From a virus (Duplodnaviria > Heunggongvirae > Uroviricota > Caudoviricetes), in IMG/VR virus record IMGVR_UViG_2563366802_000006: 46,505 bases of DNA; one strand, given 5' to 3'. Below are positions 6,063 through 46,201 of the stretch, in pieces; the stretch's first letter is position 1; each line of letters opens with the position of its first letter. The notes beneath the pieces were generated by a model that searched no databases, had not been told where the DNA came from, and was given only the letters and a program-made list of their open reading frames with translations. A program made the translations under genes and the position numbers.

Positions 6063-6067
6063 CCGTT

Positions 6068-10935: not shown

Positions 10936-10975
10936 CCCGCATTTCGGCGGGACAATCCCATCAATGTTAAAGAGC
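10936..10975 (-). promoter_or_regulatory. nutL (boxA GCTCTTTAAC + boxB hairpin CCCGCCGAAATGCGGG)
   Basis: Minus-strand boxA-like decamer followed about 14 nt later by a stem-loop; the same pair recurs as nutR on the + strand. Confidence 0.65.
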
Positions 10976-11021
10976 CTGCCAATCTGTTCCGTTTGGCTAC
11001 CAGCGTCCTGCCGATGACTTA

Positions 11022-11100
11022 AATTTAAGATTTCTTTAACTATTGGTCAAGAGCGTTTTTGAAGAAAACTTAAATTTTGTTGCGAAGCTTAAGTTTTGCT
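11022..11100 (-). promoter_or_regulatory. pL/oL region: -35 TTGACC, 17-nt spacer, -10 TAAATT (minus strand), with operator-like repeats built on TTAAG/CTTAA half-sites
   Basis: Promoter hexamers read from the sequence; operator repeats (ATTTAAGATTTCTTTAAC, CTTAAATTTTG, CTTAAGTTTTG) resemble P22-type operators. Confidence 0.55.
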
Positions 11101-11116
11101 TTGATTTTTAAAGGAA

Positions 11117-11139
11117 AGAAAAAAAGGGGCGAATGCCCC
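11117..11139 (-). terminator. Rho-independent terminator directly after the repressor gene
   Basis: Minus-strand hairpin GGGGCATTCGCCCC followed by TTTTTTT, abutting the c2 stop. Confidence 0.6.
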
Positions 11140-11790: not shown

Positions 11791-11860
11791 AGTTAAGACA
11801 TCTTAAATAAACTTGACTTAAGATTCCTTTGATAGATAATTTAAGTGTTCTTTAATTTCG
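11791..11860. promoter_or_regulatory. oR/pR/pRM region: operators AGTTAAGACATCTTAAAT and AATTTAAGTGTTCTTTAAT; pR -35 TTGACT and -10 GATAAT (+ strand)
   Basis: Near-palindromic 18-19-bp sites with TTAAG...CTTAA half-sites between divergent c2 and cro; sigma-70-like hexamers overlap them. Confidence 0.65.
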
Positions 11861-11870
11861 GGGCGAGTCT

Positions 11871-12056
11871 ATGTACAAGAAAGATGTTATCGACCACTTC
11901 GGAACCCAGCGTGCGGTAGCTAAAGCGTTAGGCATTAGCGATGCAGCAGTCTCTCAGTGGAAGGAAGTCATCCCAGAGAAAGACGCCTATCGACTGGAAG
12001 TCGTTACAGCTGGCGCCCTGAAGTATCAAGAAAGTGCTTATCGCAAAGCGGCATAA
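11871..12056 (+). CDS. cro: Cro repressor (P22 type)
   Basis: 61-aa ORF MYKKDVIDHFGTQRAVAKALGISDAAVSQWKEVIPEKDAYRLE... matches P22 Cro. Confidence 0.93.
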   Translation: MYKKDVIDHFGTQRAVAKALGISDAAVSQWKEVIPEKDAYRLEVVTAGALKYQESAYRKAA

Positions 12057-12062
12057 GCAAAT

Positions 12063-12106
12063 TGCTCTTTAACAGTCATGGTCCTTATTCCCGCCGAAAT
12101 GCGGGA
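12063..12106 (+). promoter_or_regulatory. nutR (boxA GCTCTTTAAC + boxB CCCGCCGAAATGCGGG)
   Basis: Same boxA and boxB as nutL, here on the + strand just after cro. Confidence 0.65.
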
Positions 12107-12164
12107 ATACAACGCGCATCAGTTGGTGCGTATAACTTCTTATTTGTTAAGGAAATACTTACAT

Positions 12165-12443
12165 ATGCAACTTACAAGTACTCGCAAGAAAGCGAATGCA
12201 ATCACAAGCAACATCCTGAATCGAATTGCTGTACGTGGTCAGCGAAAGGTTGCTGATGCATTAGGGATTAATGAATCGCAAATTTCGCGATGGAAAGACA
12301 GCTTTATCCCAAAGATGGCCATGCTTCTGGCTGTGCTGGAGTGGGGTGTTGAAGACGAGGAATTAGCAAAGCTAGCAAAGAAAGTAGCCATGGTGCTGAC
12401 AAAAGAAAAGCCTCAAGACTGCTGCAACAGTTTTGAGGCCTGA
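12165..12443 (+). CDS. cII: CII-family lysogeny-establishment activator (P22 c1-like)
   Basis: Start chosen at ATG 12165 (MQLTSTRKK...) after an AGGAAA ribosome-binding site; conserved core SQISRWK...IPK.AMLLAVLEWGV as in lambda CII. The ORF-track extension from 12078 spans nutR and is not used. Confidence 0.85.
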   Translation: MQLTSTRKKANAITSNILNRIAVRGQRKVADALGINESQISRWKDSFIPKMAMLLAVLEWGVEDEELAKLAKKVAMVLTKEKPQDCCNSFEA

Positions 12444-12477
12444 TGTAGAAAGACTGGATCAATCCACAGGAGTCATT

Positions 12478-13377
12478 ATGACAAATACAGCAAAAATACT
12501 CAACTTCGGCAGAGGTAACTTTACCGGACAGGAGCGTAATGTGGCAGATCTCGATGATGGTTACGCCAGACTATCAAATATGCTGCTTGAGGCTTATTCA
12601 GGCGCAGATCTGACCAAGCGACAGTTTAAAGTGCTGCTTGCCATTCTGCGTAAAACCTATGGGTGGAATAAACCAATGGACAGAATCACCGATTCTCAAC
12701 TTAGCGAGATTACAAAGTTACCTGTCAAACGGTGCAATGAAGCCAAGTTAGAACTCGTCAGAATGAATATTATCAAGCAGCAAGGCGGCATGTTTGGACC
12801 AAATAAAAACATCTCAGAATGGTGTATCCCTCAAAACGAGGGAAAATCCCCTAAAACGAGGGATAAAACATCCCTCAAATTGGGGGATTGCTATCCCTCA
12901 AAACAGGGGGACACAAAAGACACTATTACAAAAGAAAAAAGAAAAGATTATTCGTCCGAGAATTCTGGCGAATCCTCTGACCAGCCAGAAAACGATCTTT
13001 CTGTGGTTAAACCGGATGCTGCAATTCAGAGCGGCAGTAAGTGGGGAACAGCAGAAGACCTGACCGCCGCAGAGTGGATGTTTGACATGGTGAAGACCAT
13101 CGCGCCATCAGCCAGAAAACCGAATTTTGCTGGGTGGGCTAACGATATCCGCCTGATGCGTGAACGTGACGGACGTAACCACCGCGATATGTGTGTGCTT
13201 TTCCGCTGGGCCTGCCAGGACAACTTCTGGTCCGGTAACGTGCTGAGTCCGGCCAAACTCCGCGACAAGTGGACCCAGCTCGAAATCAACCGTAACAAGC
13301 AACAGGCTGGCGTGACAGCCGGAAAACCAAAACTCGACCTGACAAACACTGACTGGATTTACGGGGTGGATCTATGA
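12478..13377 (+). CDS. O: Lambda O replication initiator
   Basis: Start at ATG 12478 (MTNTAKILNFGRGNF...); near-identical to lambda O. Confidence 0.95.
   Translation: MTNTAKILNFGRGNFTGQERNVADLDDGYARLSNMLLEAYSGADLTKRQFKVLLAILRKTYGWNKPMDRITDSQLSEITKLPVKRCNEAKLELVRMNIIKQQGGMFGPNKNISEWCIPQNEGKSPKTRDKTSLKLGDCYPSKQGDTKDTITKEKRKDYSSENSGESSDQPENDLSVVKPDAAIQSGSKWGTAEDLTAAEWMFDMVKTIAPSARKPNFAGWANDIRLMRERDGRNHRDMCVLFRWACQDNFWSGNVLSPAKLRDKWTQLEINRNKQQAGVTAGKPKLDLTNTDWIYGVDL
12826..12960. repeat. ori-lambda: four iterons (ATCCCTCAAAACGAGGGA-like) followed by an AT-rich stretch, inside O
   Basis: Four direct repeats (ATCCCTCAAAACGAGGGA, ATCCCCTAAAACGAGGGA, ATCCCTCAAATTGGGGGA, ATCCCTCAAAACAGGGGG) then ACAAAAGACACTATTACAAAAGAAAAAAGAAAAG. 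Confidence 0.9.
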
Positions 13378-14075
13378 AAAACATCGCCGCACAGATGGTT
13401 AACTTTGACCGTGAGCAGATGCGTCGGATCGCCAACAACATGCCGGAACAGTACGACGAAAAGCCACAGGTACAGCAGGTAGCGCAGATCATCAACGGTG
13501 TGTTCAGCCAGTTACTGGCAACTTTCCCGGCGAGTCTGGCTAACCGTGACCAGAACGAACTGAACGAAATCCGCCGCCAGTGGGTTCTGGCTTTCCGGGA
13601 AAACGGGATCACCACAATGGAACAGGTTAACGCAGGAATGCGCGTAGCCCGTCGGCAGAATCGACCATTTCTGCCATCACCCGGGCAGTTTGTTGCATGG
13701 TGCCGGGAAGAAGCATCCGTTATCGCCGGACTGCCAAACGTCAGCGAGCTGGTTGATATGGTTTACGAGTATTGCCGGAAGCGAGGCCTGTATCCGGATG
13801 CGGAGTCTTATCCGTGGAAATCAAACGCGCACTACTGGCTGGTTACCAACCTGTATCAGAACATGCGGGCCAATGCGCTTACTGATGCGGAATTACGGCG
13901 CAAGGCTGCCGATGAACTGACCTGTATGACAGCGCGAATTAACCGTGGTGAGACGATACCTGAACCAGTAAAACAACTTCCTGTTATGGGCGGTAGACCT
14001 CTAAATCGTGCACAGGCTCTGGCGAAGATCGCAGAAATTAAAGCTAAGTTCGGACTGAAAGGAGCAAGTGTATGA
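13374..14075 (+). CDS. P: Lambda P, DnaB helicase loader
   Basis: 233-aa ORF near-identical to lambda P. Confidence 0.95.
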   Translation: MKNIAAQMVNFDREQMRRIANNMPEQYDEKPQVQQVAQIINGVFSQLLATFPASLANRDQNELNEIRRQWVLAFRENGITTMEQVNAGMRVARRQNRPFLPSPGQFVAWCREEASVIAGLPNVSELVDMVYEYCRKRGLYPDAESYPWKSNAHYWLVTNLYQNMRANALTDAELRRKAADELTCMTARINRGETIPEPVKQLPVMGGRPLNRAQALAKIAEIKAKFGLKGASV

Positions 14076-14362
14076 CGGGCAAAGAGGCAATTATTCATTA
14101 CCTGGGGACGCATAATAGCTTCTGTGCGCCGGACGTTGCCGCGCTAACAGGCGCAACAGTAACCAGCATAAATCAGGCCGCGGCTAAAATGGCACGGGCA
14201 GGTCTTCTGGTTATCGAAGGTAAGGTCTGGCGAACGGTGTATTACCGGTTTGCTACCAGGGAAGAACGGGAAGGAAAGATGAGCACGAACCTGATTTTTA
14301 AGGAGTGTCGCCAGAGTGCCGCGATGAAACGGGTATTGGCGGTATATGGAGTTAAAAGATGA
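14072..14362 (+). CDS. ren: Ren (Rex-exclusion resistance)
   Basis: 96-aa ORF matching lambda Ren; overlaps the P stop. Confidence 0.9.
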   Translation: MTGKEAIIHYLGTHNSFCAPDVAALTGATVTSINQAAAKMARAGLLVIEGKVWRTVYYRFATREEREGKMSTNLIFKECRQSAAMKRVLAVYGVKR

Positions 14363-14386
14363 CCATCTACATTACTGAGCTAATAA

Positions 14387-14420
14387 CAGGCCTGCTGGTA
14401 ATCGCAGGCCTTTTTATTTG
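14387..14420 (+). terminator. tR2-like rho-independent terminator
   Basis: Hairpin AGGCCTGCTGGTAATCGCAGGCCT followed by TTTTTATTT between ren and ninB. Confidence 0.75.
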
Positions 14421-14435
14421 GGGGAGAGGGAAGTC

Positions 14436-14876
14436 ATGAAAAAACTAACCTTTGAAATTCGATCTCCAGCACATCAGCAAAACGCTATTCACGCAGTACA
14501 GCAAATCCTTCCAGACCCAACCAAACCAATCGTAGTAACCATTCAGGAACGCAACCGCAGCTTAGACCAGAATCGAAAGCTTTGGGCTTGCCTTGGTGAC
14601 GTCTCTCGTCAGGTTGAATGGCATGGTCGCTGGCTGGATGCAGAAAGCTGGAAGTGTGTGTTTACCGCAGCATTAAAGCAGCAGGATGTTGTTCCTAACC
14701 TTGCCGGGAATGGCTTTGTGGTAATAGGCCAGTCAACCAGCAGGATGCGTGTAAACGAATTTGCGGAGCTATTAGAGCTTATACAGGCATTCGGTACAGA
14801 GCGTGGCGTTAAGTGGTCAGACGAAGCGCGACTGGCTCTCGAATGGAAAGCGCGATGGGGAGATCGGGCTGCATGA
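14436..14876 (+). CDS. ninB: NinB recombination protein
   Basis: Start at ATG 14436 (MKKLTFEIRSPAHQQ...); matches lambda NinB. Confidence 0.92.
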   Translation: MKKLTFEIRSPAHQQNAIHAVQQILPDPTKPIVVTIQERNRSLDQNRKLWACLGDVSRQVEWHGRWLDAESWKCVFTAALKQQDVVPNLAGNGFVVIGQSTSRMRVNEFAELLELIQAFGTERGVKWSDEARLALEWKARWGDRAA

Positions 14877-15400
14877 CTATCAAATCAAATACGCCAGCAC
14901 ACGACAAGGACTGCTGGCAAACGCCGCTTTGGCTTTTTGATGCACTGGATATTGAGTTTGGATTCTGGCTGGATTCGGCAGCGAGCGACAAAAATGCTCT
15001 GTGCGCTCACTGGTTAACTGAGGCCGACGACGCGCTAAATTCTGAGTGGATAAGCCACGGTGCAATCTGGAATAACCCACCGTACAGCAATATCAGGCCG
15101 TGGGTGGAAAAAGCCGCCGAGCAGTGCATACAACAGCGACAGACGGTAGTTATGCTTGTGCCAGAGGATATGTCAGTCGGATGGTTCAGCAAGGCTCTGG
15201 AGAGTGTCGACGAAGTTCGCATTATCACTGATGGACGGATTAATTTTATCGAACCATCGACAGGGCTGGAGAAGAAGGGAAACAGCAAAGGCTCCATGCT
15301 GCTGATTTGGCGACCGTTCATCAGTCCTCGACGGATGTTTACTACCGTATCCAAAGCGGCATTGATGGCGATCGGGCAGGGCGTCAGGAGGGCGGCATGA
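14873..15400 (+). CDS. Phage DNA N6-adenine methyltransferase (Dam-like)
   Basis: Start at ATG 14873 overlapping the ninB stop (ATGA); NPPY-type catalytic motif (IWNNPPYS); about 175 aa. Confidence 0.8.
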
Positions 15401-15573
15401 GGCGACAGCGACGAAGTTTCACCGACATCATCTGCGAAAACTGCAAATACCTTCCAACGAAACGCTCCAGAAATAAACGCAAGCCAATCCCAAAAGAATC
15501 TGACGTAAAAACCTTCAATTACACAGCTCACCTGTGGGATATCCGGTGGCTAAGATATCGTGCGAGGAAATGA
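15397..15573 (+). CDS. ninE: NinE
   Basis: [52 protein letters not shown]...; ATG overlaps the methyltransferase stop. Confidence 0.85.
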
Positions 15574-15917
15574 CAATGGATTATTCACAGTTAAGTGATT
15601 TTGAAATTAACAGAATGGTAGGAGACATAATTTTTAAAGGCCTTTGGGCAAGTAAACCGGAAACATCAGGGAATAACACCAACAAATGGTATTACGGAAA
15701 TGCTGATACAACTTTTGAGCCATTAAATCATTTGCCTGACTACTGCAATGATCCGAGCGCTTCATGGCCGATTATTGAGAAATACAGGATTTCTATCTTA
15801 GACCAGTTAACTGAATGGTGTGTGGATGCAAAAGGCGTAAGCCCAATATTTGATACCAGACCTCTCCGCGCCGCCATGATTGTCTTTCTCCTGATGCAGG
15901 AGGCCAATAATGCTTAG
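15570..15917 (+). CDS. Hypothetical nin-region protein (about 115 aa, AT-rich codon usage)
   Basis: ORF coupled to the ninE stop; no family confidently recognised. Confidence 0.5.
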
Positions 15918-16104
15918 CCCATCTCAATCCCTTCAATACCTGAAAGGAAGCATAGAGCGGGCTTCAATGTGCACAGAGTGGATTCTATCTAGGTTTAGCG
16001 CATACAGAAGATTGCCGGTAAAGGGCATGCCAAGCAAGTCGATGCTGCATATGCAAAAGAATGCGCGCTGGAAGGTATGGCGAGAACACAGGTTATCTGG
16101 CTGA
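15910..16104 (+). CDS. NinF-like small protein with divergent C-terminal half
   Basis: N-terminus [10 protein letters not shown] resembles lambda NinF, but the remainder lacks the cysteine-rich NinF motif; not explained by a simple frameshift. Confidence 0.45.
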
Positions 16105-16123
16105 AAGAGGGGGTTATTAAGGC

Positions 16124-16486
16124 GTGAATACCTACAGCATCACATTACCCTGGCCTCCGAGCAATAATCGCTATTACCGCCATAATCGCGGGCGCACGCA
16201 CGTCAGCGCAGAGGGGCAGGCATACCGCGATAACGTCGCCCGAATCATTAAAAACGCAATGCTGGATATCGGCCTGGCTATGCCTGTGAAAATCCGCATT
16301 GAGTGCCACATGCCGGATCGCCGTCGCCGTGACCTGGATAATCTGCAAAAAGCCGCTTTTGACGCACTCACTAAAGCAGGTTTCTGGCTGGATGATGCTC
16401 AGGTCGTTGATTACCGCGTTGTGAAGATGCCTGTTACCAAAGGTGGGAGGCTGGAACTGACCATCACCGAAATGGGGAATGAATGA
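16124..16486 (+). CDS. rusA: RusA Holliday-junction resolvase
   Basis: 120-aa ORF matching DLP12 RusA ([23 protein letters not shown]...). Confidence 0.95.
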
Positions 16487-16623
16487 TGTTTGAGTTTAAT
16501 ATGGCAGAACTTCTTCGCCACCGCTGGGGGCGTCTGCGCTTATATCGTTTCCCCGGCTCTGTTTTGACCGATTACCGAATACTGAAGAATTACGCCAAAA
16601 CACTGACAGGAGCAGGAGTATGA
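16483..16623 (+). CDS. ylcG: YlcG-like small protein
   Basis: 46-aa ORF found by hand ([46 protein letters not shown]), overlapping the rusA stop; DLP12 synteny. Confidence 0.75.
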
Positions 16624-16708
16624 AGTCAGAGATAACAATCAACTAATACTGTTTTGTTGATTTTTGCTTGTAATTGGCGTTCTGGTCTGAGTTTTGTGGA
16701 GTAAGTTG

Positions 16709-17092
16709 ATGCGTGATATTCAGATGGTTCTTGAGCGTTGGGGAGCGTGGGCGGCTAATAATCATGAAGATGTGACCTGGTCGTCCATTGCCGCCGGTTT
16801 TAAGGGATTAATTCCTTCAAAAGTAAAATCTCGCCCGCAATGTTGTGACGATGACGCGATGATCATTTGCGGGTGCATGGCCCGTCTGAAAAAGAACAAC
16901 AGCGATTTGCACGATTTATTAGTAGATTATTATGTAGTCGGTATGACATTCATGTCACTGGCAGGTAAGCATTGCTGCTCTGATGGTTATATCGGGAAAA
17001 GGTTACAAAAGGCTGAGGGCATAATTGAAGGGATGTTAATGGCATTAGATATCCGGTTAGAGATGGATATCGTTGTTAATAACTCTAATTAA
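16709..17092 (+). CDS. quuD: Late-gene antiterminator Q (phage 21/82-type, QuuD-like)
   Basis: Start at ATG 16709 ([22 protein letters not shown]...); matches DLP12 QuuD as I recall it. Confidence 0.9.
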
Positions 17093-17111
17093 TATGCCAA
17101 TTGTTTACTAA

Positions 17112-17281
17112 AAATTATTAAAAATGGGGCGTTGAGACGCCCCCAAAAATAAAGGGTAATATATAACAGAAGGTTTATATAGTTAGAAGCAAGGTTGTGC
17201 TTCTAAAGGAAGTGGCTTGAGGGAGCCACTTATATGTTGGGGAGGCAACGCCTCCCGCAACATATCTTTTTCGTAATCAGA
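17112..17281 (-). ncRNA. ipeX: Candidate IpeX-like small RNA: multi-hairpin 3' region of the porin gene ending in a terminator
   Basis: Four consecutive minus-strand stem-loops downstream of the nmpC stop, the last (GGGGGCGTCTCAACGCCCC) followed by a T-run; the DLP12 sRNA IpeX is, to my recollection, derived from this nmpC-quuD interval. Confidence 0.4.
17232..17277 (+). terminator. tR'-like rho-independent terminator downstream of Q
   Basis: Long perfect stem ATATGTTGGGGAGGC-AACG-CCTCCCGCAACATAT followed by CTTTTTCG. Confidence 0.75.
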
Positions 17282-18364
17282 TTAGAACTGGTAAACCAGA
17301 CCTACAGCAACGATGTCATCAGTATCAATACCAGCTGTTTTGGTAAACTTACTATCGTCAATTAAGTTGATTTTGTAATCAACAAAAGTGGACATGTTTT
17401 TATTAAAGTAGTAAGTAGCACCGACATCGACATACTTGACTAAGTCTCGGTCACCATGAACACCAAGGTCTTTACCTTTTGACTGAAGGTAAGCAACAGA
17501 TGGGCGCAGACCGAAGTCAAACTGATATTGTGCTACTGCTTCAAAGTTTTGTGCTTTGTTTGCAATATGGTTATTACCAAAAACGGTCATATTCTGAGTT
17601 TCAGAATATGTGGTAGCCAGATAGATATTGTTCGCATCATATTTCAGGCCTGCAGCCCATACTTCCGCATTTTTGCCGGAGGCATTGAATTTGCTCTTAC
17701 CATAGGCGACCTGACCGTCAGTGCGATCTGATTTAGCATAGGTTGCACCCACGCCGAATCCTTCATACTCATAAGTAGTGGAGAAACCGAAACCATCACC
17801 ATTGGCTTCAGTTACGTCAGTGCGGTCATTTTTACCCTGATACTGAGCAGCAAAGTTCAGGCCATCGACCAGACCAAAGAAGTCGTTGTTACGATAAGTT
17901 GCAACACCAGTAGTGCGACCAGTCATGAACACATCTGTTTGGGTCCAGGTATCACCACCGAATTCTGGCAGGACGTCAGTCCACGCACCGATGTCGTATG
18001 CTACACCGTAGTTACGGCCGTAATCGATTGAGCCGTAATCACCAAATTTCAGGCCTGCAAATGCAAGACGGGTTTTGTCTTTGGAAGAACCTTGAGATTC
18101 AGCGCGGTTGCCTTTGAATTCATATTCCCACTGACCGAAACCAGTCAGTTGATCGTTGATTTGGGTTTCACCTTTGAAGCCAAGACGGGCATAAGTAGTA
18201 TCACCATCATCTGCATCATTAGAGGAGAAGTAGTGCTTAGCATTAACTTTCCCGTACAGATCCAGCTTGTTACTGTCTTTATTATAAATTTCAGCTGCCT
18301 GAGCAGACATCGCCATCAGTACTGATGCAGCTACAGCAGAAATTGCCACTGTTAATTTTTTCAT
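17282..18364 (-). CDS. nmpC: Outer-membrane porin, OmpC/OmpF/PhoE family (NmpC-like), apparently intact
   Basis: 360-aa ORF with signal peptide [23 protein letters not shown] and C-terminal ...VAVGLVYQF; located between Q and the holin as in DLP12. Confidence 0.93.
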
Positions 18365-18792
18365 CGTGAGCCCTTTTTTTTGAACTATTATTAAAAAATG
18401 ATGTCACTGCGCGATAAATATTCATCTAATCAATGTGATTATTTCAAGATGTAAGTTTTGGTTTCTCGTTTAATTTGTGAAGTAGATCTCTATTTTTATC
18501 TGAACTTTTTTCTATCGAATCCTATTCATGGCTCTTGGCTGAATAAAAATAAATCTATTAGCCAATTTATATTAATGGCTGTTATTTATAAGTGCTCTAT
18601 AATTTGAAGGTTCAATTTAAATTGGCTAAAAATAACGCTGGAAATTATTTGTTGGTTATTTGTTGAGATTTGCTTATGTATTTGTAGTGGTGTTTTCAAT
18701 ACTCGGTAGCATTCTCGCAAATATCATTTAGTGGTTTACGTACGTAAAAAATTGGTTATGCTGTTAAGAGTGGTTACTTCGTCACACAGCTT

Positions 18793-27523: not shown

Positions 27524-27543
<20 letters not shown>

Positions 27544-28842
27544 TCTCCCGCATATTGCCAGTATGGCCTTTAATGAGCCGCTGATGCTTGAACCCGCCTA
27601 TGCGCGGGTTTTCTTTTGTGCGCTTGCAGGCCAGCTTGGGATCAGCCGCCTGACGGATGCGGTGTCCGGCGACAGCCTGACTGCCGGAGAGGCACCCGCG
27701 GCGCTGGCGTTATCCGTTGATGATGACGGACCACGACAGGCCCGCAGTTATCAGGTCATGAACGGCATCGCCGTGCTGCCGGTGTCCGGCACGCTGGTCA
27801 GCCGGACGCGGGCGCTGCAGCCGTATTCGGGGATGACCGGTTACAACGGCATTATCGCCGTCTGCAACAGGCTGCCAGCGATCCGATGGTGGACGGCATT
27901 CTGCTGGATATGGACACACCGGGCGGGATGGTGGCGGGAGCATTTGACTGTGCTGACATCATCGCCCGTGTGCGAGACATAAAACCGGTATGGGCGCTGG
28001 CCAACGACATGAACTGCAGTGCAGGTCAGCTGCTTGCCAGCGCCGCCTCCCGGCGTCTGGTCACGCAGACCGCCCGGACAGGCTCCATCGGCGTCATGAT
28101 GGCTCACAGTAATTACGGTGCTGCGCTGGAGAAACAGGGCGTGGAAATCACGCTGATTTACAGCGGCAGCCATAAGGTGGATGGCAACCCCTACAGCCAT
28201 CTACCGGATGATGTCCGGGAAACACTGCAGTCCCGGATGGATGCAACCCGCCGGATGTTTGCACAGAAGGTGTCGGCATATACCGGCCTGTCCGTGCAGG
28301 CTGTGCTGGATACCGAGGCTGCAGTGTACAGCGGTCAGGAGGCCATTGATGCCGGACTGGCTGATGAACTTGTGAACAGTACCGATGCGATCACCGTCAT
28401 GCGTGATGCACTGGATGCACGTAAATCCCGTCTCTCAGGAGGGCGAATGACCAAAGAGACTCAATCAACAACTGTTTCAGCCACTGCTTCGCAGGCTGAC
28501 GTTACTGGCGTGGTGCAAGCGACGGAGGGCGAGAACGCCAGCGCTGCGCAGCCGGACGTGAACGCGCAGATCACCGCAGCGGTTGCGGCAGAAAACAGTC
28601 GCATTATGGGGATCCTCAACTGTGAGGAGGCTCACGGACGCGAAGAACAGGCATGCGTGCTGGCCGAAACCCCCGGTATGACCGTGGAAACGGCCCGCCG
28701 TATTCTGGCCGCAGCACCACAGAGTGCACAGGCGCGCAGTGACACTGCGCTGGATCGTCTGATGCAGGGGGCACCGGCACCGCTGGCTGCAGGTAACCCG
28801 GCATCTGATGCCGTTAACGATTTGCTGAACACACCAGTGTAA
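27524..28842 (+). pseudogene. C: Head protease/scaffold C, disrupted by a 1-bp deletion in a C-run near 27857-27860
   Basis: N-terminal part reads in one frame to a stop at 27982 and the C-terminal part continues in another frame from 27886; lambda has ATCGCCCGTCTG where this sequence has ATCGCCGTCTG. Confidence 0.75.
28255..28842 (+). CDS. nu3: Scaffolding protein Nu3 (nested in the C-terminal frame of C); start approximate
   Basis: C-terminal frame of C is intact; the internal start was not determined precisely. Confidence 0.4.
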   Translation: MFAQKVSAYTGLSVQAVLDTEAAVYSGQEAIDAGLADELVNSTDAITVMRDALDARKSRLSGGRMTKETQSTTVSATASQADVTGVVQATEGENASAAQPDVNAQITAAVAAENSRIMGILNCEEAHGREEQACVLAETPGMTVETARRILAAAPQSAQARSDTALDRLMQGAPAPLAAGNPASDAVNDLLNTPV

Positions 28843-38625: not shown

Positions 38626-41600
38626 ATGGGTAAAGGCAGCAGTAAGGGGCATACCCCGCGCGAAGCGAAGGACAACCTGAAGTCCACGCAGCTGCTGAGT
38701 GTGATCGATGCCATCAGCGAAGGGCCGATTGAAGGTCCGGTGGATGGATTAAAAAGCGTGCTGCTGAACAGTACACCGGTGCTGGACAGTGAGGGGAATA
38801 CCAACATCTCCGGTGTCACGGTGGTGTTCCGGGCAGGTGAGCAAGAACAGACACCGCCAGAGGGATTTGAATCATCAGGTTCTGAGACGGTACTGGGTAC
38901 GGAAGTGAAATACGACACGCCGATCACCCGGACTATCACGTCTGCAAACATCGACCGTCTGCGCTTTACCTTCGGTGTGCAGGCACTGGTGGAAACCACC
39001 TCAAAGGGTGACAGGAATCCGTCGGAGGTCCGACTGCTGGTTCAGATACAGCGTAACGGTGGCTGGGTGACAGAAAAAGACATCACCATTAAGGGCAAAA
39101 CCACGTCGCAGTATCTGGCCTCGGTGGTGGTGGATAACCTGCCGCCGCGCCCGTTCAATATCCGGATGCGCAGGATGACGCCGGACAGCACCACAGACCA
39201 GCTGCAGAACAAAACGCTCTGGTCGTCATACACCGAAATTATCGATGTGAAACAGTGCTACCCGAACACGGCACTGGTCGGCGTGCAGGTGGACTCGGAG
39301 CAGTTCGGCAGCCAGCAGGTGAGCCGTAATTATCATCTGCGCGGGCGTATTCTGCAGGTGCCGTCGAATTATAACCCGCAGACGCGGCAATACAGCGGTA
39401 TCTGGGACGGAACGTTTAAACCGGCATACAGCAACAACATGGCCTGGTGTCTGTGGGATATGCTGACCCACCCGCGCTACGGCATGGGGAAACGTCTTGG
39501 TGCGGCGGATGTGGATAAATGGGCGCTGTATGTCATCGGCCAGTACTGCGACCAGTCAGTGCCGGACGGCTTTGGCGGCACGGAGCCGCGCATCACCTGT
39601 AATGCGTACCTGACCACACAGCGCAAGGCGTGGGATGTGCTCAGTGATTTCTGCTCGGCGATGCGCTGTATGCCGGTATGGAACGGGCAGACGCTGACGT
39701 TCGTGCAGGACCGACCGTCGGATAAGGTGTGGACCTATAACCGCAGTAATGTGGTGATGCCGGATGATGGCGCGCCGTTCCGCTACAGTTTCAGCGCCCT
39801 GAAGGACCGCCATAATGCCGTTGAGGTGAACTGGATTGACCCGAATAACGGCTGGGAAACGGCAACAGAGCTTGTGGAGGACACGCAGGCCATTGCCCGT
39901 TACGGTCGTAACGTCACGAAAATGGATGCCTTTGGCTGTACCAGCCGGGGGCAGGCGCACCGCGCCGGGCTGTGGCTGATTAAAACGGAACTGCTGGAAA
40001 CGCAGACCGTGGACTTCAGCGTGGGTGCAGAAGGGCTGCGCCATGTACCGGGTGATGTTATTGAAATCTGCGATGATGACTATGCGGGGATCAGCATTGG
40101 CGGGCGCGTGCTGGCGGTGAACAGCCAGACCCGGACGCTGACGCTCGACCGTGAAATCACGCTGCCATCCTCCGGCACCACGCTGATAAGCCTGGTTGAC
40201 GGGCAGGGTAATCCGGTGAGCGTGGAGGTCCAGTCCGTCACCGACGGCGTGAAGGTAAAAGTGAGCCGTGTTCCTGACGGCGTTGCCGAATACAGCGTGT
40301 GGGGGCTGAAGCTGCCGATGCTGCGTCAGCGCCTGTTCCGCTGTGTGAGTATCCGTGAGAACGACGACGGCACGTATGCCATCACCGCCGTGCAGCATGT
40401 GCCGGAAAAAGAGGCCATCGTGGATAACGGGGCGCACTTTGACGGCGACCAGAGTGGCACGGTGAATGGTGTCACGCCGCCAGCGGTGCAGCACCTGACT
40501 GCCGAAGTCACCGCAGACAGCGGGGAATATCAGGTACTGGCGCGCTGGGACACGCCGAAGGTGGTGAAGGGCGTGAGCTTTATGCTTCGCCTGACCGTGG
40601 CAGCGGATGACGGCAGTGAGCGGCTGGTCAGCACGGCCCGGACGACGGAAACCACATACCGCTTCACGCAACTGGCGTTGGGAAACTACAGGCTGACAGT
40701 CCGGGCGGCAAATGCCTGGGGGCAGCAGGGCGATCCGGCGTCGGTATCGTTCCGGATTGCCGCACCGGCAGCACCGTCGCGGATTGAGCTGACACCGGGG
40801 TATTTTCAGATAACCGCCACGCCGCATCTTGCCGTTTATGACCCGACGGTACAGTTTGAATTCTGGTTCTCGGAAAAGCGGATTGCGGATATCAGACAGG
40901 TTGAAACCACAGCGCGCTATCTTGGCACGGCGCTGTACTGGATAGCTGCCAGTATCAATATCAGGCCGGGCCATGATTATTATTTTTACATCCGCAGTGT
41001 GAACACCGTTGGCAAATCGGCATTTGTGGAGGCTGTTGGCCAGCCGAGTGATGATGCATCCGGCTATCTGGATTTTTTCAAAGGAGAGATAGGGAAAACC
41101 CATCTGGCTCAGGAGTTGTGGACGCAGATTGATAACGGTCAGCTTGCGCCTGACCTGGCTGAAATCAGGATGTCCATTACGGATGTCAGCAATGAAATCA
41201 CGCAGACCGTCAATAAGAAACTGGAAGACCAGAGTGCAGCAATTCAGCAGATACAGAAGGTTCAGGTTGATACAAATAATAACCTGAACAGCATGTGGGC
41301 TGTGAAGCTGCAGCAGATGCAGGACGGACGCCTTTATATCGCGGGTATTGGTGCCGGTATTGAGAATACCCCTGACGGTATGCAGAGTCAGGTGCTGCTG
41401 GCGGCGGACAGGATTGCGATGATTAATCCTGCGAATGGCAACACAAAGCCGATGTTTGTTGGTCAGGGCGATCAGATATTCATGAACGAAGTGTTCCTGA
41501 AATACCTGACGGCTCCCACCATTACCAGCGGCGGTAATCCTCCGGCATTTTCCCTGACACCGGACGGGCGGCTGACGGCGAAAAATGCAGATATCAGCGG

Positions 41601-42105
41601 TAACGTGAATGCGAACTCCGGGACGCTCAACAATGTCACGATTAATCAGAACTGCCGGATTCTGGGAAAACTGTCAGCCAACCAGATTGAAGGCGATATT
41701 GTTAAAACGGTGGGCAAAGCTTTCCCCCGGGACTCCCGTGCACCGGAGCGGTGGCCATCAGGAACCATTACCGTCAGGGTTTATGACGATCAGCCGTTTG
41801 ACCGGCAAATTGTTATCCCGGCGGTGGCATTCAGTGGCGCTAAACATGAGCAAGATCATACTGATATCTACTCCTCATGCCGTCTGATAGTACGAAAAAA
41901 CGGTGCTGAAATTTATAACCGAACGGCTCTGGATAATACGCTGATATATACGGGTGTTATTGATATGCCTGCAGGCAGTGGTGTCATGACACTGGAATTT
42001 TCTGTATCGGCATGGCTGGTAAATGGCTGGTATCCCACAGCAAGTATCAGCGATTTGCTGGTTGTGGTGATGAAGAAAGCCACCGCAGGCATCAGTATCA
42101 GCTGA
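38626..42105 (+). CDS. J: Central tail fibre / host-specificity protein J
   Basis: 1159-aa ORF; N-terminal roughly 900 aa match lambda gpJ closely. Confidence 0.96.
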
Positions 42106-42172: not shown

Positions 42173-42772
42173 ATGCGTAAATTATGTGCTGTTATTCTGT
42201 CCGCAGTAGTCTGGCTGGTTGCCGCTGGTACGCCAGCGAGCGCAGCAGAGCATCAGTCCACACTAAGCGCCGGGTATCTTCAGACCCATACTGATATGCC
42301 AGGCAGTGATGACCTGAAGGGCATTAACGTGAAATACCGTTATGAATTTACGGACACGCTGGGGCTGGTGACGTCATTCAGTTATGCCAATGCCAAAGAT
42401 GAGCAAAAAACGCATTACAGCGATACCCGCTGGCATGAAGATTCAGTGCGTAACCGCTGGTTCAGCATGATGGCGGGGCCATCTGTACGCGTGAATGAAT
42501 GGTTCAGTGCTTATGCGATGGCAGGTGTGGCTTACAGCCGTGTTTCGACGTTCTCCGGGGATTATCTCCGCGTAACTGACAACAAGGGGAAAACGCACGA
42601 TGTGCTGACCGGAAGTGATGACGATCGCCACAGCAACACGTCTCTGGCGTGGGGAGCTAGCGTGCAGTTTAACCCGACCGAATCCGTGGCCATTGATATT
42701 GCTTATGAAGGCTCCGGCAGTGGCGACTGGCGCACTGACGGTTTCATCGTGGGTGTCGGTTATAAATTCTGA
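42173..42772 (+). CDS. lom: Lom outer-membrane protein (Ail/Lom/PagC family)
   Basis: 199-aa ORF with signal peptide and beta-barrel signature ending ...GFIVGVGYKF; matches lambda Lom. Confidence 0.93.
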   Translation: MRKLCAVILSAVVWLVAAGTPASAAEHQSTLSAGYLQTHTDMPGSDDLKGINVKYRYEFTDTLGLVTSFSYANAKDEQKTHYSDTRWHEDSVRNRWFSMMAGPSVRVNEWFSAYAMAGVAYSRVSTFSGDYLRVTDNKGKTHDVLTGSDDDRHSNTSLAWGASVQFNPTESVAIDIAYEGSGSGDWRTDGFIVGVGYKF

Positions 42773-42830: not shown

Positions 42831-45209
42831 GTGGATATGGCAGCAGTAAAAATCTCAGGTGTGCTGAAAGATGGTGCGGGAAAACCAATACAGAACTGCA
42901 CTATTCAACTGAAGGCAAAGCGTAACAGCACCACGGTACTGGTGAACACGGTGGCCTCTGAAAATCCGGATGAAGCCGGGCGTTACAGCATGGATGTTGA
43001 GTATGGCCAGTACAGCGTCATCCTGCTGGTTGAAGGTTTTCCGCCTTCACATGCCGGGACCATTACCGTCTATGAAGGTTCCAGACCAGGTACGCTGAAT
43101 GATTTTCTTGGTGCCATGACGGAGGATGATGCCCGTCCGGAGGCACTGCGCCGTTTTGAACTGATGGTGGAAGAAGCAGCACGCAACGCTGAAGCCGCCT
43201 CTCAGAGCGCAGCGGCGGCAAAGAAATCCGAAACTGCAGCGGCATCATCGAAGAACGCGGCGAAAACCTCAGAAACGAATGCAGCTAATAGTGCACAGGC
43301 GGCAGCGACCTCACAGACTGCATCAGCAAACTCCGCGACAGCAGCCAAAAAATCAGAAACCAACGCGAAAAACAGCGAGACAGCCGCAAAGACGAGCGAA
43401 ACCAACGCAAAGTCCAGCCAGACGGCAGCGAAAACCAGCGAAACGAATGCCAAAGCCAGTGAAACTGCGGCAAAAAACAGCCAGGTTGCAGCAGCCCAAA
43501 GCGAGAGCGCGGCAGCCGGTTCTGCGACTTCAGCAGCTGGATCAGCAACTGCTGCGGCTAACAGCCAGAAAGCTGCGAAGACGAGTGAAACTAACGCAAA
43601 GTCCAGCCAGACGGCAGCGAAGACCAGCGAAACGAATGCCAAAGCCAGCGAAACTGCGGCGAAAAACAGCCAGGATGCAGCAGCCCAAAGCGAGAGTGCC
43701 GCAGCTGGTTCTGCAAGTGCGGCGGCTTCTTCTGCCACTGCATCAGCCAACAGTCAAAAAGCAGCAAAAACCAGTGAAACCAACACAAAGGCGAGCGAGA
43801 CTGCGGCGACTAACTCGGCGAAAGCATCCGCTGCAAGCCAGATGGCTGCAAAAGCAAGTGAAGACGCAGCCAGAGAGTATGCAAGCCAGGCAGCAGAGCC
43901 GTATAAATATGTCTTACAGCCACTGCCTGATGTGTGGATACCGTTTAATGACTCGATGGATATGATTACAGGATTTGGCCCGGGATATAAAAAAATAACA
44001 GTGCGCGATGATGTGGTCACTATACCATCCGACAAAATTGTCCCGTTTTCCCGCGCGAGTTCCGCGACCTATATCAATAAGTCCGGCGCTCTTACCATTG
44101 CAGAAATTAATGAGCCACGTTTTGAAAAAGAAGGGCTGTTAATTGAAGGGCAGAGAACAAATTACTTCACAAACTCAAACGCTCCGGAATTGTGGAATAA
44201 AAATCCAGGCCTGAAGATAAGCGAGACAAAAACCGATTCCAGGGGTTTTAAATATGCAACGTTTACCCCAGAAAAATATTTAGATAGTTCTGGCTCATAT
44301 GGAATTATATCAGGGGCAGCAGCAAATAAGATAGCGGTAGTCAAAAATGATGCAGTTACAATATCCTTTAGAGCAAAAGGGGATAATGTAAGATTTGCGG
44401 CTAGATTTGATAAAGGGGATTCGCCAGTTGCTGTAGCTGCCATTTTTATTGATAGCGCCACACTAGATACATTCACGTCTGGAGCAGATGCGTCTAATAT
44501 TGCTGTGAAAAATGTTGTTCGTGACGGTGAGTGGGTTGCTGTAGAGGCTGTTTATAAAGTAACAGACGACTCTACATATATTAACGGCGCCATTCTGATG
44601 TCAAACAAACTGGGTGCTAATTTTGATAAGACTAGTTTTATGGATGTAACCACCCCTCAAATAGAGCTAGGTTCTTGCTTATCATCATTTATTGTCACAC
44701 CAGGTGTTCCTGCGACAAGGGCGAGTGATATGGTTATTTTTTCAACCAGAAATAACATAAGTTCTGTCCCTTTAAGCTGTCTTGTTGAAATACATAAAAA
44801 TTGGGACTCTACGCCAAATCAGGCCCCACGAATTTTAACCACTATTGGCGTGGCGACTAATGATGAACAACTGGTATTGGCTTTCAGGACGCCTACAAGT
44901 CCGGATGTAGAACCTTTACCTTATGTTCAGTTTGGAGTGAGATCTGCATATCTTAGTCCATCTGTGAAGGCCGGGCGCAAAATGATTGCTGGTTTTGTCT
45001 GTAATAGCTCGACTGAATTTCGTTGCTGTTGTAATGGTTACCTGTCACCTGTTCAGACTTCGTCATGGAAGAATACCGGAGCTGCACATGAAATACGTAT
45101 TGGGGGAACTTCTGCTGGAGGAGAACGTCACTTGTTTGGTCACGTTCGTAACCTGAGAATATGGCATAAAGAATTAACTGATGCGCAAATGGGGGAGAGT
45201 ATTAAATGA
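42831..45209 (+). CDS. stf: Side tail fibre: lambda Stf-like N-terminus, Ala/Ser/Thr-rich repeat shaft, divergent low-GC C-terminal module
   Basis: N-terminus (AVKISGVLKDGAGKPIQNCTIQLKAKRNSTTVLVNTV...) matches lambda Stf; the C-terminal roughly 430 aa are AT-rich, unlike lambda Stf, and end in a ConA/LamG-like pattern. Confidence 0.85.
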   Translation: MDMAAVKISGVLKDGAGKPIQNCTIQLKAKRNSTTVLVNTVASENPDEAGRYSMDVEYGQYSVILLVEGFPPSHAGTITVYEGSRPGTLNDFLGAMTEDDARPEALRRFELMVEEAARNAEAASQSAAAAKKSETAAASSKNAAKTSETNAANSAQAAATSQTASANSATAAKKSETNAKNSETAAKTSETNAKSSQTAAKTSETNAKASETAAKNSQVAAAQSESAAAGSATSAAGSATAAANSQKAAKTSETNAKSSQTAAKTSETNAKASETAAKNSQDAAAQSESAAAGSASAAASSATASANSQKAAKTSETNTKASETAATNSAKASAASQMAAKASEDAAREYASQAAEPYKYVLQPLPDVWIPFNDSMDMITGFGPGYKKITVRDDVVTIPSDKIVPFSRASSATYINKSGALTIAEINEPRFEKEGLLIEGQRTNYFTNSNAPELWNKNPGLKISETKTDSRGFKYATFTPEKYLDSSGSYGIISGAAANKIAVVKNDAVTISFRAKGDNVRFAARFDKGDSPVAVAAIFIDSATLDTFTSGADASNIAVKNVVRDGEWVAVEAVYKVTDDSTYINGAILMSNKLGANFDKTSFMDVTTPQIELGSCLSSFIVTPGVPATRASDMVIFSTRNNISSVPLSCLVEIHKNWDSTPNQAPRILTTIGVATNDEQLVLAFRTPTSPDVEPLPYVQFGVRSAYLSPSVKAGRKMIAGFVCNSSTEFRCCCNGYLSPVQTSSWKNTGAAHEIRIGGTSAGGERHLFGHVRNLRIWHKELTDAQMGESIK
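43380..43755. repeat. Tandem direct repeat inside stf, unit 189 bp (63 codons), two near-identical copies
   Basis: GACGAGCGAAACCAACGCAAAGTCCAGCCAGACGGCAGCGAAAACCAGCGAAACGAATGCCAAAGCCAG... at 43391 recurs at 43580 with a few substitutions; encoded AAKTSETNAKSSQTAAKTSETNAKASETAAKNSQ repeats. Confidence 0.85.
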
Positions 45210-45487
45210 AAGATTTAACACTCAAATTTGCAGACAGGGCCGACTTTTCGGCCTTTATGGAGAGCATTGGCTATTATGATGACGAGTTGATGCAGGATGA
45301 TATTCTTATTGACGTGATAGGTAACGTGTACAAAGAAACCGGAGAACTGACTGAAGATGGCGAACCGGTATGTGTTAAGGAAGACGGATATTTTGTAAAC
45401 GTGCGCATCATTAATGATGCAAAAAAATCGTCAATATTCGATGAATACGCGGTTGTTGTTGAACATCAACTTCGTGGCTGGATGTGA
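45206..45487 (+). CDS. Hypothetical small acidic protein (93 aa), coupled to the stf stop
   Basis: ATG overlaps the stf stop (ATGA); low GC; no similarity to lambda Tfa. Confidence 0.5.
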   Translation: MKDLTLKFADRADFSAFMESIGYYDDELMQDDILIDVIGNVYKETGELTEDGEPVCVKEDGYFVNVRIINDAKKSSIFDEYAVVVEHQLRGWM

Positions 45488-45496: not shown

Positions 45497-46201
45497 ATGG
45501 CTACATCGACAGTAATTCCGGGAGACATCACCACGCTGAAGGGAGATGTCAGTAAAGCGAAGGAAGATATTTCCTCAATTAACAGTAAAGTATCAACGCT
45601 TCAGACTGATATGACCAGTGCAAAGCAGGATATCAGCTCCAGATACACAAAAACTGAAGTTGATAATAAGCTGAAAAACAAAGTGGAAGTGAACGATCTG
45701 GAAAGTGGTCGTTATGGCGGAGATTTTTATCCACTGACAGGTCGTGAAGCGTTTTATTTATGGAATTTGGCCACGACTACAGCGGCGGCAAACCTTTATC
45801 TTAATCCTGACCCTGCAATTTCGTCTGTACTGCGGTCAACATCGTCTATCCGCTATAAGCATTCAGTAGAGACGATAGATTCAGAGCACGCCGATCTCAT
45901 TTTCAGGATGCGCCCTGTATGGTACAGGTCACAATGCGAAAATGACAGGCGTGACTGGGGATTCTACGGATTGATTGCCGAGGAAGTAGGAGAAATTGCC
46001 CCTCAGTTTGTACACTGGCGATCAGCTAACGAAGATGATGCACGGGAAGCTATTTCCAGCAATGGCCTTGTTGCCGAAGGTGTAATGTACGAACGTCTGG
46101 TTGTTCCACTGATTCACCATATCCAGAAACTGACCGAAAGAGTTGATGAACTTGAGTCAGAATTGAAGTTGTTATCAACTTCCCGAAGCGATATCGGATA
46201 A
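45497..46201 (+). CDS. Hypothetical protein with C-terminal Peptidase_S74-like intramolecular chaperone domain and N-terminal coiled coil
   Basis: C-terminal pattern SSIRYKHSVETI...WGFYGLIAEEVGEIAPQFV...YERLVVPLIHHIQKLTERVDELESEL fits the endosialidase/tail-fibre chaperone domain consensus; N-terminal heptad-like region. Confidence 0.55.
   Translation: MATSTVIPGDITTLKGDVSKAKEDISSINSKVSTLQTDMTSAKQDISSRYTKTEVDNKLKNKVEVNDLESGRYGGDFYPLTGREAFYLWNLATTTAAANLYLNPDPAISSVLRSTSSIRYKHSVETIDSEHADLIFRMRPVWYRSQCENDRRDWGFYGLIAEEVGEIAPQFVHWRSANEDDAREAISSNGLVAEGVMYERLVVPLIHHIQKLTERVDELESELKLLSTSRSDIG

What the first reader, a model, noticed from the sequence alone, without database searches (positions are those of the whole stretch)
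43380..43755. Near-perfect 189-bp tandem duplication inside the side tail fibre shaft
Two adjacent 63-codon units are almost identical at the nucleotide level, within a longer Ala/Ser/Thr-rich repetitive shaft. This is a substrate for recombinational expansion or contraction of fibre length and a likely hotspot for assembly collapse.
Basis: seen in the sequence. Interest (0 to 1): 0.4.

Follow-up and report, generated by a model that had tools for sequence, protein, structure and literature searches.

The report
Nine-heptad duplication in tail-fibre rod
A lambda-like prophage's side tail fibre gene carries an old, 86%-identical tandem duplication of a 63-amino-acid stretch of its helical rod; related phages have one, two or three copies, so this is ordinary length variation of a fibre protein by recombination between repeats.

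Summary
The 189-bp tandem duplication is real. In-frame units lie at 43371-43559 and 43560-43748, inside stf (42837-45209), downstream of J and lom. It is not near-perfect: 162/189 nt (85.7%) and 56/63 aa match. Only a 102-nt core is 96% identical; the ends are 68-82%.

The unit is exactly nine heptads of an uninterrupted 34-heptad Ser/Ala-rich array (x-S-[E/Q/A]-T-A-A-[K/A]). This array is homologous to the proximal coiled-coil rod of Ur-lambda Stf, and AlphaFold2 predicts it as helix.

The two-copy form is the modal allele. It occurs in about 1,000 of 5,426 complete E. coli genomes and is joined to at least 12 different distal modules.

Rare relatives have one copy (phage IdasGreatGrand) or three copies (one IMG/VR contig, three metagenome contigs). 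Their extra or remaining unit is a clean unit-1/unit-2 hybrid that switches within the core, as unequal homologous recombination predicts. Other variants lose 1, 2, 7 or 15 heptads, always keeping the heptad register.

Assembly collapse is not: the longest exact match between copies is 29 nt. This is an ordinary finding of low novelty.

The parts
42837..45209 (+). stf, side tail fibre gene (790 aa from the ATG; an in-frame GTG lies at 42831)
   Evidence: ORF. It lies downstream of J (38626-42105) and lom (42173-42772). Pfam PF08400 E = 2.4e-67. phrog_1419 matches full length. RefSeq annotates the identical gene in strain 3359 at these coordinates.
42843..43232 (+). N-terminal 'prophage tail fibre N-terminal' domain (collar / tail-attachment domain plus linker)
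   Evidence: PF08400 covers aa 5-134 of the GTG-start protein. Residues 3-95 match PDB 9e7m/9mgh 'Tail fiber protein' at E = 1.2e-49. This is the gpStfN collar of Ur-lambda (PMC12617516).
43182..43895 (+). Shaft: 34 uninterrupted heptads (aa 116-353), consensus x-S-[E/Q/A]-T-A-A-[K/A]; predicted alpha-helical coiled-coil rod
   Evidence: Heptad table: Ser at position 2 in 32/35 rows, Ala at position 6 in 30/35. 21-bp repeat families. AF2 predicts helix for aa 99-235 and 242-352. It aligns with the lambda Stf region that Yu et al. 2025 model as the proximal coiled coil, residues 102-393.
43371..43559 (+). Repeat unit 1 (63 aa = 9 heptads)
43560..43748 (+). Repeat unit 2 (63 aa = 9 heptads); 85.7% nt and 88.9% aa identical to unit 1
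43749..43809 (+). Partial, more diverged third unit (about 0.3 copy) leading into the distal end of the shaft
   Evidence: TRF reports 2.3 copies. The repeat finder family D1 copy 43749-43809 is 77% identical to the reference copy.
43404..43505 (+). High-identity core of unit 1 (96% to 43593-43694 in unit 2); the interval where the inferred crossovers of the 1-copy and 3-copy alleles fall
   Evidence: 4/102 differences in the core against 23/87 outside it. Switch points.
43896..45209 (+). Distal module of the fibre, with a C-terminal concanavalin-A-like (Laminin_G_3) match at about 45000-45188; presumed receptor-binding part, swapped between relatives
   Evidence: PF13385 E = 3.4e-07 over aa 724-786. 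The alignment shows divergence starting after the shaft. The same shaft is joined to at least 12 distal clusters.

Best explanation
The feature is an old segmental duplication of nine heptads (63 aa, 189 bp) inside the alpha-helical, presumably trimeric, coiled-coil proximal rod of a lambda-type side tail fibre (Stf).

The unit is a whole number of heptads, so the duplication lengthens the rod without breaking the coiled-coil register. The added length is about 9 nm, inferred from roughly 0.15 nm rise per residue.

The two-unit, 252-aa shaft is the prevailing allele among E. coli lambdoid prophages. It serves as a conserved scaffold onto which different distal receptor-binding modules are recombined.

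The two units have diverged at their ends. A core of about 100 nt stays nearly identical at synonymous sites as well, which I attribute to gene conversion or recombination between the units (inferred). That core, together with the 21-bp-periodic repeats around it, occasionally supports unequal homologous recombination or slippage. The products are alleles with one or three units, or alleles lacking 1, 2, 7 or 15 heptads, always in register.

Shown here: the repeat, its register, helical propensity, homology to lambda Stf, the length variants, and their hybrid structure. Inferred: trimeric coiled-coil state, the recombination pathway, conversion of the core, and any effect of length on adsorption.
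For: - Repeat and its statistics.
- Gene identity: PF08400 E = 2.4e-67 and position after J and lom; collar domain matches PDB 9e7m.
- Register: 34 unbroken heptads with Ser at position 2 and Ala at position 6, spaced 4+3.
- Helix: AF2 predicts helix across aa 99-352 with pLDDT mostly 80-95.
- Homology: 62% identity to lambda Stf over aa 3-273. Yu et al. 2025 model residues 102-393 of lambda Stf as a trimeric proximal coiled coil (PMC12617516).
- Age of the duplication: unit-1-specific and unit-2-specific nucleotides are shared by prophages of REL606, DETEC-S586, 30602_6#35, DG342-2 and phage PhiR46_1. 16 codons differ synonymously against 7 non-synonymously.
- Prevalence: 1,001 of 5,426 complete genomes have a match covering at least 80% of 43150-43950, and all listed full-coverage rows have the same length.
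- Length variants: 1 unit in IdasGreatGrand, in L089, and probably in the 8 protein clusters whose shaft is exactly 63 aa shorter (189 aa); 3 units in L004 and L134-L136; -7 aa in F5505-C1 and L072; -14, -49 and -105 aa in L131, L088 and L055. All differences are multiples of 7 aa.
- Hybrid units with a single switch inside the core. Conversion mosaics in HCM-28C-2.
- Homogenised core: 3 synonymous changes in 34 core codons against 13 in 29 flank codons.
- Scaffold role: the 252-aa shaft is joined to at least 12 distal clusters, and each variant is a singleton within its cluster.
Against: - No experimental structure covers the shaft. The PDB holds only the collar domain, and the lambda rod was modelled from AlphaFold3 fitted to tomograms.
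- The AF2 run used a single sequence and a monomer. It folds back on itself at aa 236-241 and has pTM 0.31.
- A Ser/Ala core is unusual for a coiled coil.
- All four 3-copy alleles switch in the same interval (unit sites 62-89). They may descend from one event rather than show recurrent expansion. None occurs in the 5,426 complete genomes, and all four come from draft or metagenome assemblies.
- The clean hybrid pattern of a single-copy allele is partly expected whatever the repeat phase; only the interior sites are informative.
- In MS8345 and an Esc12 plasmid, unit 1 is only 67% identical to unit 2. The history may therefore involve replacement of a diverged segment rather than one simple duplication.
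Confidence: 0.85

Rival explanations
1. The two units are a recent duplication in this strain, or a sequencing or assembly artefact.
For: Tandem repeats can be created or collapsed by assemblers. Many public Stf proteins are partial because contigs end inside the gene.
Against: - The units differ at 27 of 189 nt, including 16 synonymous-only codons.
- The same unit-specific nucleotides occur in many unrelated prophages and in an isolated phage.
- The gene is 100% identical in two independent complete genomes.
- About 1,000 complete genomes carry the same two-unit length.
Confidence: 0.02
2. The similarity is only the generic resemblance of heptad repeats, produced by composition and protein-level constraint, and not a true duplication of a 189-bp block.
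For: The whole shaft is made of similar 21-bp units. Offsets that are multiples of 21 give 43-58% identity.
Against: - Offset 189 gives 85.7%, against a maximum of 59.8% at any other offset.
- Synonymous third positions are shared in the core.
- The nine heptads recur in the same order in both units.
Confidence: 0.02
3. The repeat acts as a contingency-type device. Frequent gain and loss of units tunes fibre reach to the depth of the receptor under O-antigen or capsule, and different lengths are selected on different hosts.
For: Alleles with 1, 2 and 3 units, and with other in-register lengths, exist. A plaque-forming phage has the 1-unit shaft. The side fibres must reach beyond the central fibre (PMC12617516). 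The prophage carries exo, bet and gam, which could catalyse such exchanges.
Against: - The 252-aa shaft accompanies at least 12 different distal modules, and each length variant is a singleton in a cluster otherwise at 252 aa. Length therefore does not track receptor-binding type.
- There were no 3-unit alleles in 5,426 complete genomes.
- The units are only 86% identical with at most 29 nt of exact match, a poor substrate for high-frequency switching.
Confidence: 0.08
4. The shaft is not a coiled coil but another fibrous fold, such as a triple beta-helix or a disordered Ala/Ser-rich linker. The 7-residue period would then reflect something else.
For: Ser and Ala are atypical core residues. 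The AF2 monomer model has low pTM and folds back on itself. No solved structure exists.
Against: - There is strict 7-residue periodicity with conserved positions spaced 4+3 over 34 repeats.
- Every natural length variant differs by a multiple of 7 aa.
- AF2 predicts helix with pLDDT up to 95.
- The homologous lambda segment fits rod density and is modelled as a trimeric coiled coil.
Confidence: 0.05

Closest known systems
Ur-lambda side tail fibre Stf: N-terminal collar domain plus proximal trimeric coiled-coil rod (Yu et al., Sci Adv 2025, PMC12617516; PDB 9e7m/9mgh for the collar)
   Same: Same gene position after J and lom. Same PF08400 N-terminal domain (E = 2.4e-67; residues 3-95 match the solved collar at E = 1.2e-49). 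The same kind of Ser/Ala-rich heptad rod follows it. Identity is 62% over aa 3-273.
   Different: - Lambda's rod heptads are more degenerate. In the pairwise alignment they show only weak internal similarity (about 50% over fewer than 100 aa) and nothing like the 89%-identical 63-aa pair; I did not run a dedicated repeat search on lambda stf.
- The distal part here is a concanavalin-A-like module, not the gp37-like tip.
- The downstream genes are a 93-aa ORF of unknown function and an S74-chaperone-domain protein instead of Tfa.
Size variation of streptococcal M protein by homologous recombination between intragenic repeat blocks (Hollingshead, Fischetti and Scott, 1987; cited from my own knowledge, not retrieved here)
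   Same: It is an alpha-helical coiled-coil fibril built of heptad-based tandem blocks. In-frame gain and loss of whole blocks by recombination between repeats yields natural length variants.
   Different: M protein is a dimeric bacterial surface protein under immune selection. Its repeats are more numerous and more alike, and its size variants arise readily. Here there are only two units at 86% identity, change is rare, and no selective agent is identified. This is an analogy of mechanism, not homology.
Modular (mosaic) evolution of phage tail fibre genes (Haggard-Ljungquist et al. 1992 and Sandmeier 1994, cited from my own knowledge), and engineered lambda Stf chimeras that keep the N-terminal part (Brodel et al., Nature 2024, PMC11338833)
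   Same: A conserved N-terminal part plus shaft is combined with many different distal receptor-binding modules.
   Different: That literature concerns exchange of distal modules. The point here is variation in the length of the conserved shaft itself. I did not find this described in three full-text searches.

Membership tests
Lambda-type side tail fibre (Stf; Pfam PF08400 family) | N-terminal 'prophage tail fibre N-terminal' collar domain | tested here: met
   PF08400 E = 2.4e-67, 225.5 bits against a cut-off of 26.6, covering aa 5-134. Residues 3-95 match PDB 9e7m/9mgh at E = 1.2e-49.
Lambda-type side tail fibre (Stf; Pfam PF08400 family) | Gene position in the tail module, downstream of J and lom | tested here: met
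   J at 38626-42105, lom at 42173-42772 (PF06316 E = 1.5e-126), stf at 42837-45209.
Lambda-type side tail fibre (Stf; Pfam PF08400 family) | Proximal rod that is a trimeric alpha-helical coiled coil | tested here: inconclusive
   Heptad periodicity over 34 repeats, AF2 helix and homology to the lambda segment modelled as a coiled coil all agree. Oligomeric state and actual fold cannot be established with these tools.
Lambda-type side tail fibre (Stf; Pfam PF08400 family) | gp37-like distal tip assembled with a Tfa chaperone and binding OmpC, as in Ur-lambda itself | tested here: not met
   The distal part matches Laminin_G_3 / concanavalin-A-like. No Tfa-type gene follows; downstream lie a 93-aa ORF (phrog_1361, unknown function) and an S74-domain ORF. 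This is a different distal module on the same scaffold. The receptor is not testable here.
In-frame tandem-repeat length polymorphism of coiled-coil fibres by unequal recombination (mechanistic class, e.g. M protein) | Repeat unit is a whole number of heptads and lies in frame | tested here: met
   189 bp = 63 aa = 9 heptads, in frame with stf.
In-frame tandem-repeat length polymorphism of coiled-coil fibres by unequal recombination (mechanistic class, e.g. M protein) | Natural alleles differ by whole units, and the junction units are hybrids of neighbouring units | tested here: met
   1-, 2- and 3-unit alleles exist. The hybrid units show a single switch inside the core.
In-frame tandem-repeat length polymorphism of coiled-coil fibres by unequal recombination (mechanistic class, e.g. 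M protein) | Length change observed to arise during growth, at a measurable rate, with a phenotypic effect | not testable with these tools
   This needs passage experiments, amplicon sequencing and adsorption assays.

The most novel reading that the evidence does not exclude
Shaft length may be an adaptive, tunable trait. On this reading, gain or loss of 9-heptad units (about 9 nm each) and of single heptads adjusts how far the receptor-binding module reaches through O-antigen or capsule. The homogenised 100-nt core would be maintained because it keeps the rod recombinogenic, and the Gly/Ser-rich heptads that end each unit would act as flexible joints. Stf shafts would then be evolvable rulers analogous to tape-measure proteins.
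Probability: 0.08. Interest if true: 0.5.

Novelty: new member of a known kind. Interest (0 to 1): 0.2.

Why it matters
- Practical: lambda Stf scaffolds are being engineered to retarget delivery particles (PMC11338833). Nature evidently tolerates rods of 21 to 45 heptads, always changed in whole heptads and mostly 36 heptads long. That gives a simple design rule for shortening or lengthening chimeric fibres.
- Annotation: differences in stf length between strains can be genuine alleles rather than assembly errors.
- Biology: this is a textbook case of intragenic repeat recombination in a fibrous protein. It does not open a new question.

Tried and rejected
1. I built a synthetic three-unit query to count 3-copy alleles in complete E. 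coli genomes. It was uninformative: the tool joined overlapping pieces, so 2-copy records scored 100% coverage (record span 578 against a 767-nt query).
2. A better query spanned the L004 hybrid unit. No record gave a one-piece, high-identity match. The only hit in the 95-99% identity band is a 2-piece match spanning 228 nt, and the other 1,076 records are below 95%. So 3-copy alleles of this type are absent from the 5,426 complete genomes.
3. Three literature searches found no description of this repeat polymorphism. The library lacks most subscription journals, so absence is weak evidence.
4. My first shaft-extraction script used the wrong reading frame. I corrected it; ignore the numbers.
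5. The PDB sequence search found only the collar domain and weak matches of the repeats to depolymerase stalks (E about 6e-4). Nothing usable covers the rod.
6. I considered whether the antisense ORF (43202-43750, minus strand) or the +1-frame ORF (43279-43965) could be genes. I rejected both as by-products of the GCN/AGC-rich periodic sequence. No family search was run on them.
7. I did not use fold search: a monomeric long helix would give meaningless matches.
Full report
**Context**

The 3' end of the window is the tail-fibre region of a lambda-like prophage.
- J lies at 38626-42105 and lom at 42173-42772 (PF06316, E = 1.5e-126).
- A 790-aa gene lies at 42837-45209, with an in-frame GTG at 42831. 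Its N-terminus matches Pfam PF08400 'prophage tail fibre N-terminal' at E = 2.4e-67, and its C-terminus weakly matches a concanavalin-A-like domain.
- The gene is 100% identical over 2,379 nt to genes in two complete E. coli genomes, strains 3359 and ET210.
- The window is collinear and about 100% identical to the strain 3359 prophage from about 18.7 kb to 45.4 kb. In strain 3359 that prophage lies between intD and appY/ompT.
- Residues 3-95 match the solved collar domain of Ur-lambda Stf (PDB 9e7m/9mgh, E = 1.2e-49).

**The observation**

Tandem Repeats Finder reports a period-189 array at 43371-43809 with 2.3 copies, 84% matches and score 612. The repeat finder reports the same pair. In frame, the units are 43371-43559 and 43560-43748.
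- They share 162/189 nt (85.7%) and 56/63 aa. 16 codons differ synonymously and 7 non-synonymously.
- The proper control is the 21-bp periodicity of the shaft. Other multiples of 21 give 43-58% identity, and the best of 447 other offsets gives 59.8%, against 85.7% at offset 189. The duplication is therefore real and far beyond background.
- It is not near-perfect. The differences are uneven: 4 in the 102-nt core (unit positions 33-135) against 23 in the 87 nt of the two ends (Fisher p = 1.3e-5). The longest exact match is 29 nt.
- Synonymous differences follow the same pattern: 3 in 34 core codons against 13 in 29 end codons. The core's similarity is therefore not explained by protein constraint. 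I attribute it to conversion or recombination between the units (inference).

**What the repeat is made of**

Laid out in sevens, residues 116-353 form 34 uninterrupted heptads with consensus x-S-[E/Q/A]-T-A-A-[K/A].
- Ser occupies position 2 in 32 of 35 rows and Ala occupies position 6 in 30 of 35. The 4+3 spacing is that of coiled-coil a/d positions.
- The 63-aa unit is exactly nine heptads.
- AlphaFold2 (single sequence, monomer) predicts helix for aa 99-235 and 242-352, with pLDDT mostly 80-95. It folds back at aa 236-241, the Gly/Ser-rich heptads that end unit 1.
- Yu et al. likewise report that AlphaFold3 predicts a folded-back full-length lambda Stf that disagrees with their tomograms (PMC12617516).
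- The protein is 62% identical to lambda Stf over aa 3-273. Lambda's residues 102-393 are modelled as a trimeric proximal coiled-coil rod fitted to cryo-ET density.
- No solved structure covers the rod.

At about 0.15 nm per residue, one unit adds about 9 nm (inference from standard helix geometry).

**How common the two-unit form is, and how old**

- 1,001 of 5,426 complete E. coli genomes have a match covering at least 80% of 43150-43950. All listed full-coverage hits span the same length, including REL606.
- At the 27 nucleotide sites that distinguish unit 1 from unit 2, the same unit-specific states recur in prophages of REL606, DETEC-S586, 30602_6#35 and DG342-2, and in phage PhiR46_1. 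The duplication therefore predates the diversification of these alleles.
- Two relatives (MS8345 and a plasmid of Esc12) have a unit 1 that is only 67% identical to unit 2. HCM-28C-2 shows mosaics between the units. The history evidently includes exchange between units and with other shafts.

**Length variants**

- Phage IdasGreatGrand, an isolated phage, lacks exactly 63 aa. E. coli F5505-C1 lacks exactly one heptad, AAAQSES.
- Among the 120 best protein clusters, the core motif occurs twice in 95, once in 23, never in 3, and three times in none. A single motif match does not prove a single unit, because alleles with a diverged unit 1 also match only once. Eight of these clusters have a shaft exactly 63 aa shorter than here.
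- A gapped pattern scan found a three-unit allele in IMG/VR (L004; TRF 3.3 copies, 88%). It found three more in ENA metagenome contigs (L134-L136). These differ from one another at 12-16 of 567 nt.
- In a sample of 120 IMG/VR contigs plus L004, shaft lengths were 252 aa (84 contigs), 239 aa (19 contigs, a class with a different distal end), and single cases of 245, 238, 203, 189, 147 and 315 aa. Every difference from 252 within the same class is a multiple of 7.
- Written as heptads, the deletion end-points lie in repeated motifs such as TSETNAK/ASETAA.

**Evidence for unequal recombination**

- The single unit of IdasGreatGrand is unit-1-like at sites 6-32 and unit-2-like from site 101 onwards.
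- The middle unit of all four 3-unit alleles is unit-2-like at sites 6-62 and unit-1-like from site 89 onwards.
- These are the two reciprocal products expected from a crossover within the 96%-identical core.

Caveats:
- The four 3-unit alleles share the same switch interval and may descend from one event.
- All four come from draft or metagenome assemblies.
- No 3-unit allele exists in the 5,426 complete genomes.

**Is length variation frequent or adaptive?**

I clustered the distal parts at 85% identity. The 252-aa shaft is joined to at least 12 distinct distal clusters. Every length variant is a singleton within a cluster otherwise at 252 aa. This points to rare, sporadic events on a conserved scaffold rather than programmed or host-matched tuning. 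That scaffold is the same part that engineers retain when building Stf chimeras (PMC11338833). The prophage does carry exo, bet and gam, which could catalyse such exchanges, but the pathway is not established.

**Assembly collapse**

The exact matches between copies are at most 29 nt, the divergence is 14%, and the same length is recovered in about 1,000 finished genomes. Collapse of this repeat is therefore unlikely. Many public Stf proteins are partial. However, stf-like sequence occurs at a median of 2 and up to 14 places per genome. Paralogy between prophages is a more plausible cause of contig breaks. I did not examine reads.

**Comparison with what is known, and verdict**

The gene belongs to the PF08400 Stf family by its N-terminal domain, its position and its rod. 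Its distal module and downstream genes differ from lambda's gp37-like tip and Tfa.

The repeat behaves like the intragenic repeat blocks of other coiled-coil fibres, for example streptococcal M protein (cited from my own knowledge): in-frame gain and loss of whole blocks through recombination. Three full-text searches found no description of this particular polymorphism.

The feature is an ordinary example of a known kind. It has some practical value as a design rule: change Stf rods only in whole heptads, and natural rods of 21 to 45 heptads exist.

Noticed in passing
window 45206-45487 (+): A 93-aa ORF overlaps the stf stop codon. It has no Pfam match and falls in phrog_1361 (unknown function). 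The same small gene follows this type of stf in IdasGreatGrand, F5505-C1 and PhiR46_1. It sits where lambda has tfa, so it may be a fibre assembly factor.
   Followed up: partly
window 45497-46201 (+): This 234-aa ORF has a Peptidase_S74 'chaperone of endosialidase' domain at aa 116-172. Its first 33 aa match the 346-aa tail-fibre family (phrog_4563) found at this position in relatives, and the rest matches the C-terminal end of phrog_3299. It looks like a mosaic, shorter second fibre gene. In strain 3359, whose stf is identical, an IS5 occupies this position instead.
   Followed up: partly
window 43202-43750 (-) and 43279-43965 (+, other frame): Long ORFs lie antisense to the shaft repeats and in the +1 frame over them. 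The antisense one (182 aa, Ala/Leu/Phe-rich) corresponds in position to lambda's annotated 'orf206b'. They are most likely by-products of the periodic GCN-rich sequence rather than genes.
   Followed up: no
window 1-18750, compared with L133 (E. coli strain 3359, NZ_CP103739.1): The early region of the prophage is rearranged relative to the otherwise identical strain 3359 prophage. A 2.5-kb IS66-type block lies at window 7134-9665 in inverted orientation, and other IS elements (IS100, IS1) differ in placement. exo, bet and gam map to roughly window 4600-6364 on the minus strand.
   Followed up: partly
window 27524-28842 (+): In the 100%-identical strain 3359 sequence, RefSeq marks the S49 family head protease gene as frameshifted. 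The prophage may therefore be defective. I did not check this in the window itself.
   Followed up: no
window about 45120-45206 (C-terminal end of stf): The last roughly 30 residues (RHLFGHVRN[L/F]RIWHK.LTDAQ.GE) are conserved among relatives whose distal modules are otherwise very different. They could serve as a 3' recombination anchor for cassette exchange of the receptor-binding part.
   Followed up: no
window 43542-43559 (aa 236-241) and the equivalent end of unit 2: Each unit ends with Gly/Ser-rich heptads (GSATSAA GSATAAA). The AF2 monomer model breaks and folds back exactly there. This may be a modelling artefact or a locally flexible point of the rod.
   Followed up: no
L006 (E. coli MS8345 chromosome) and L012 (Esc12 plasmid 2, annotated 'phage head spike fiber domain-containing protein'): These alleles have the same shaft length, but unit 1 is a much more diverged nine-heptad block, 67% identical to unit 2. 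One of them is on a 106-kb plasmid, presumably a phage-plasmid.
   Followed up: partly
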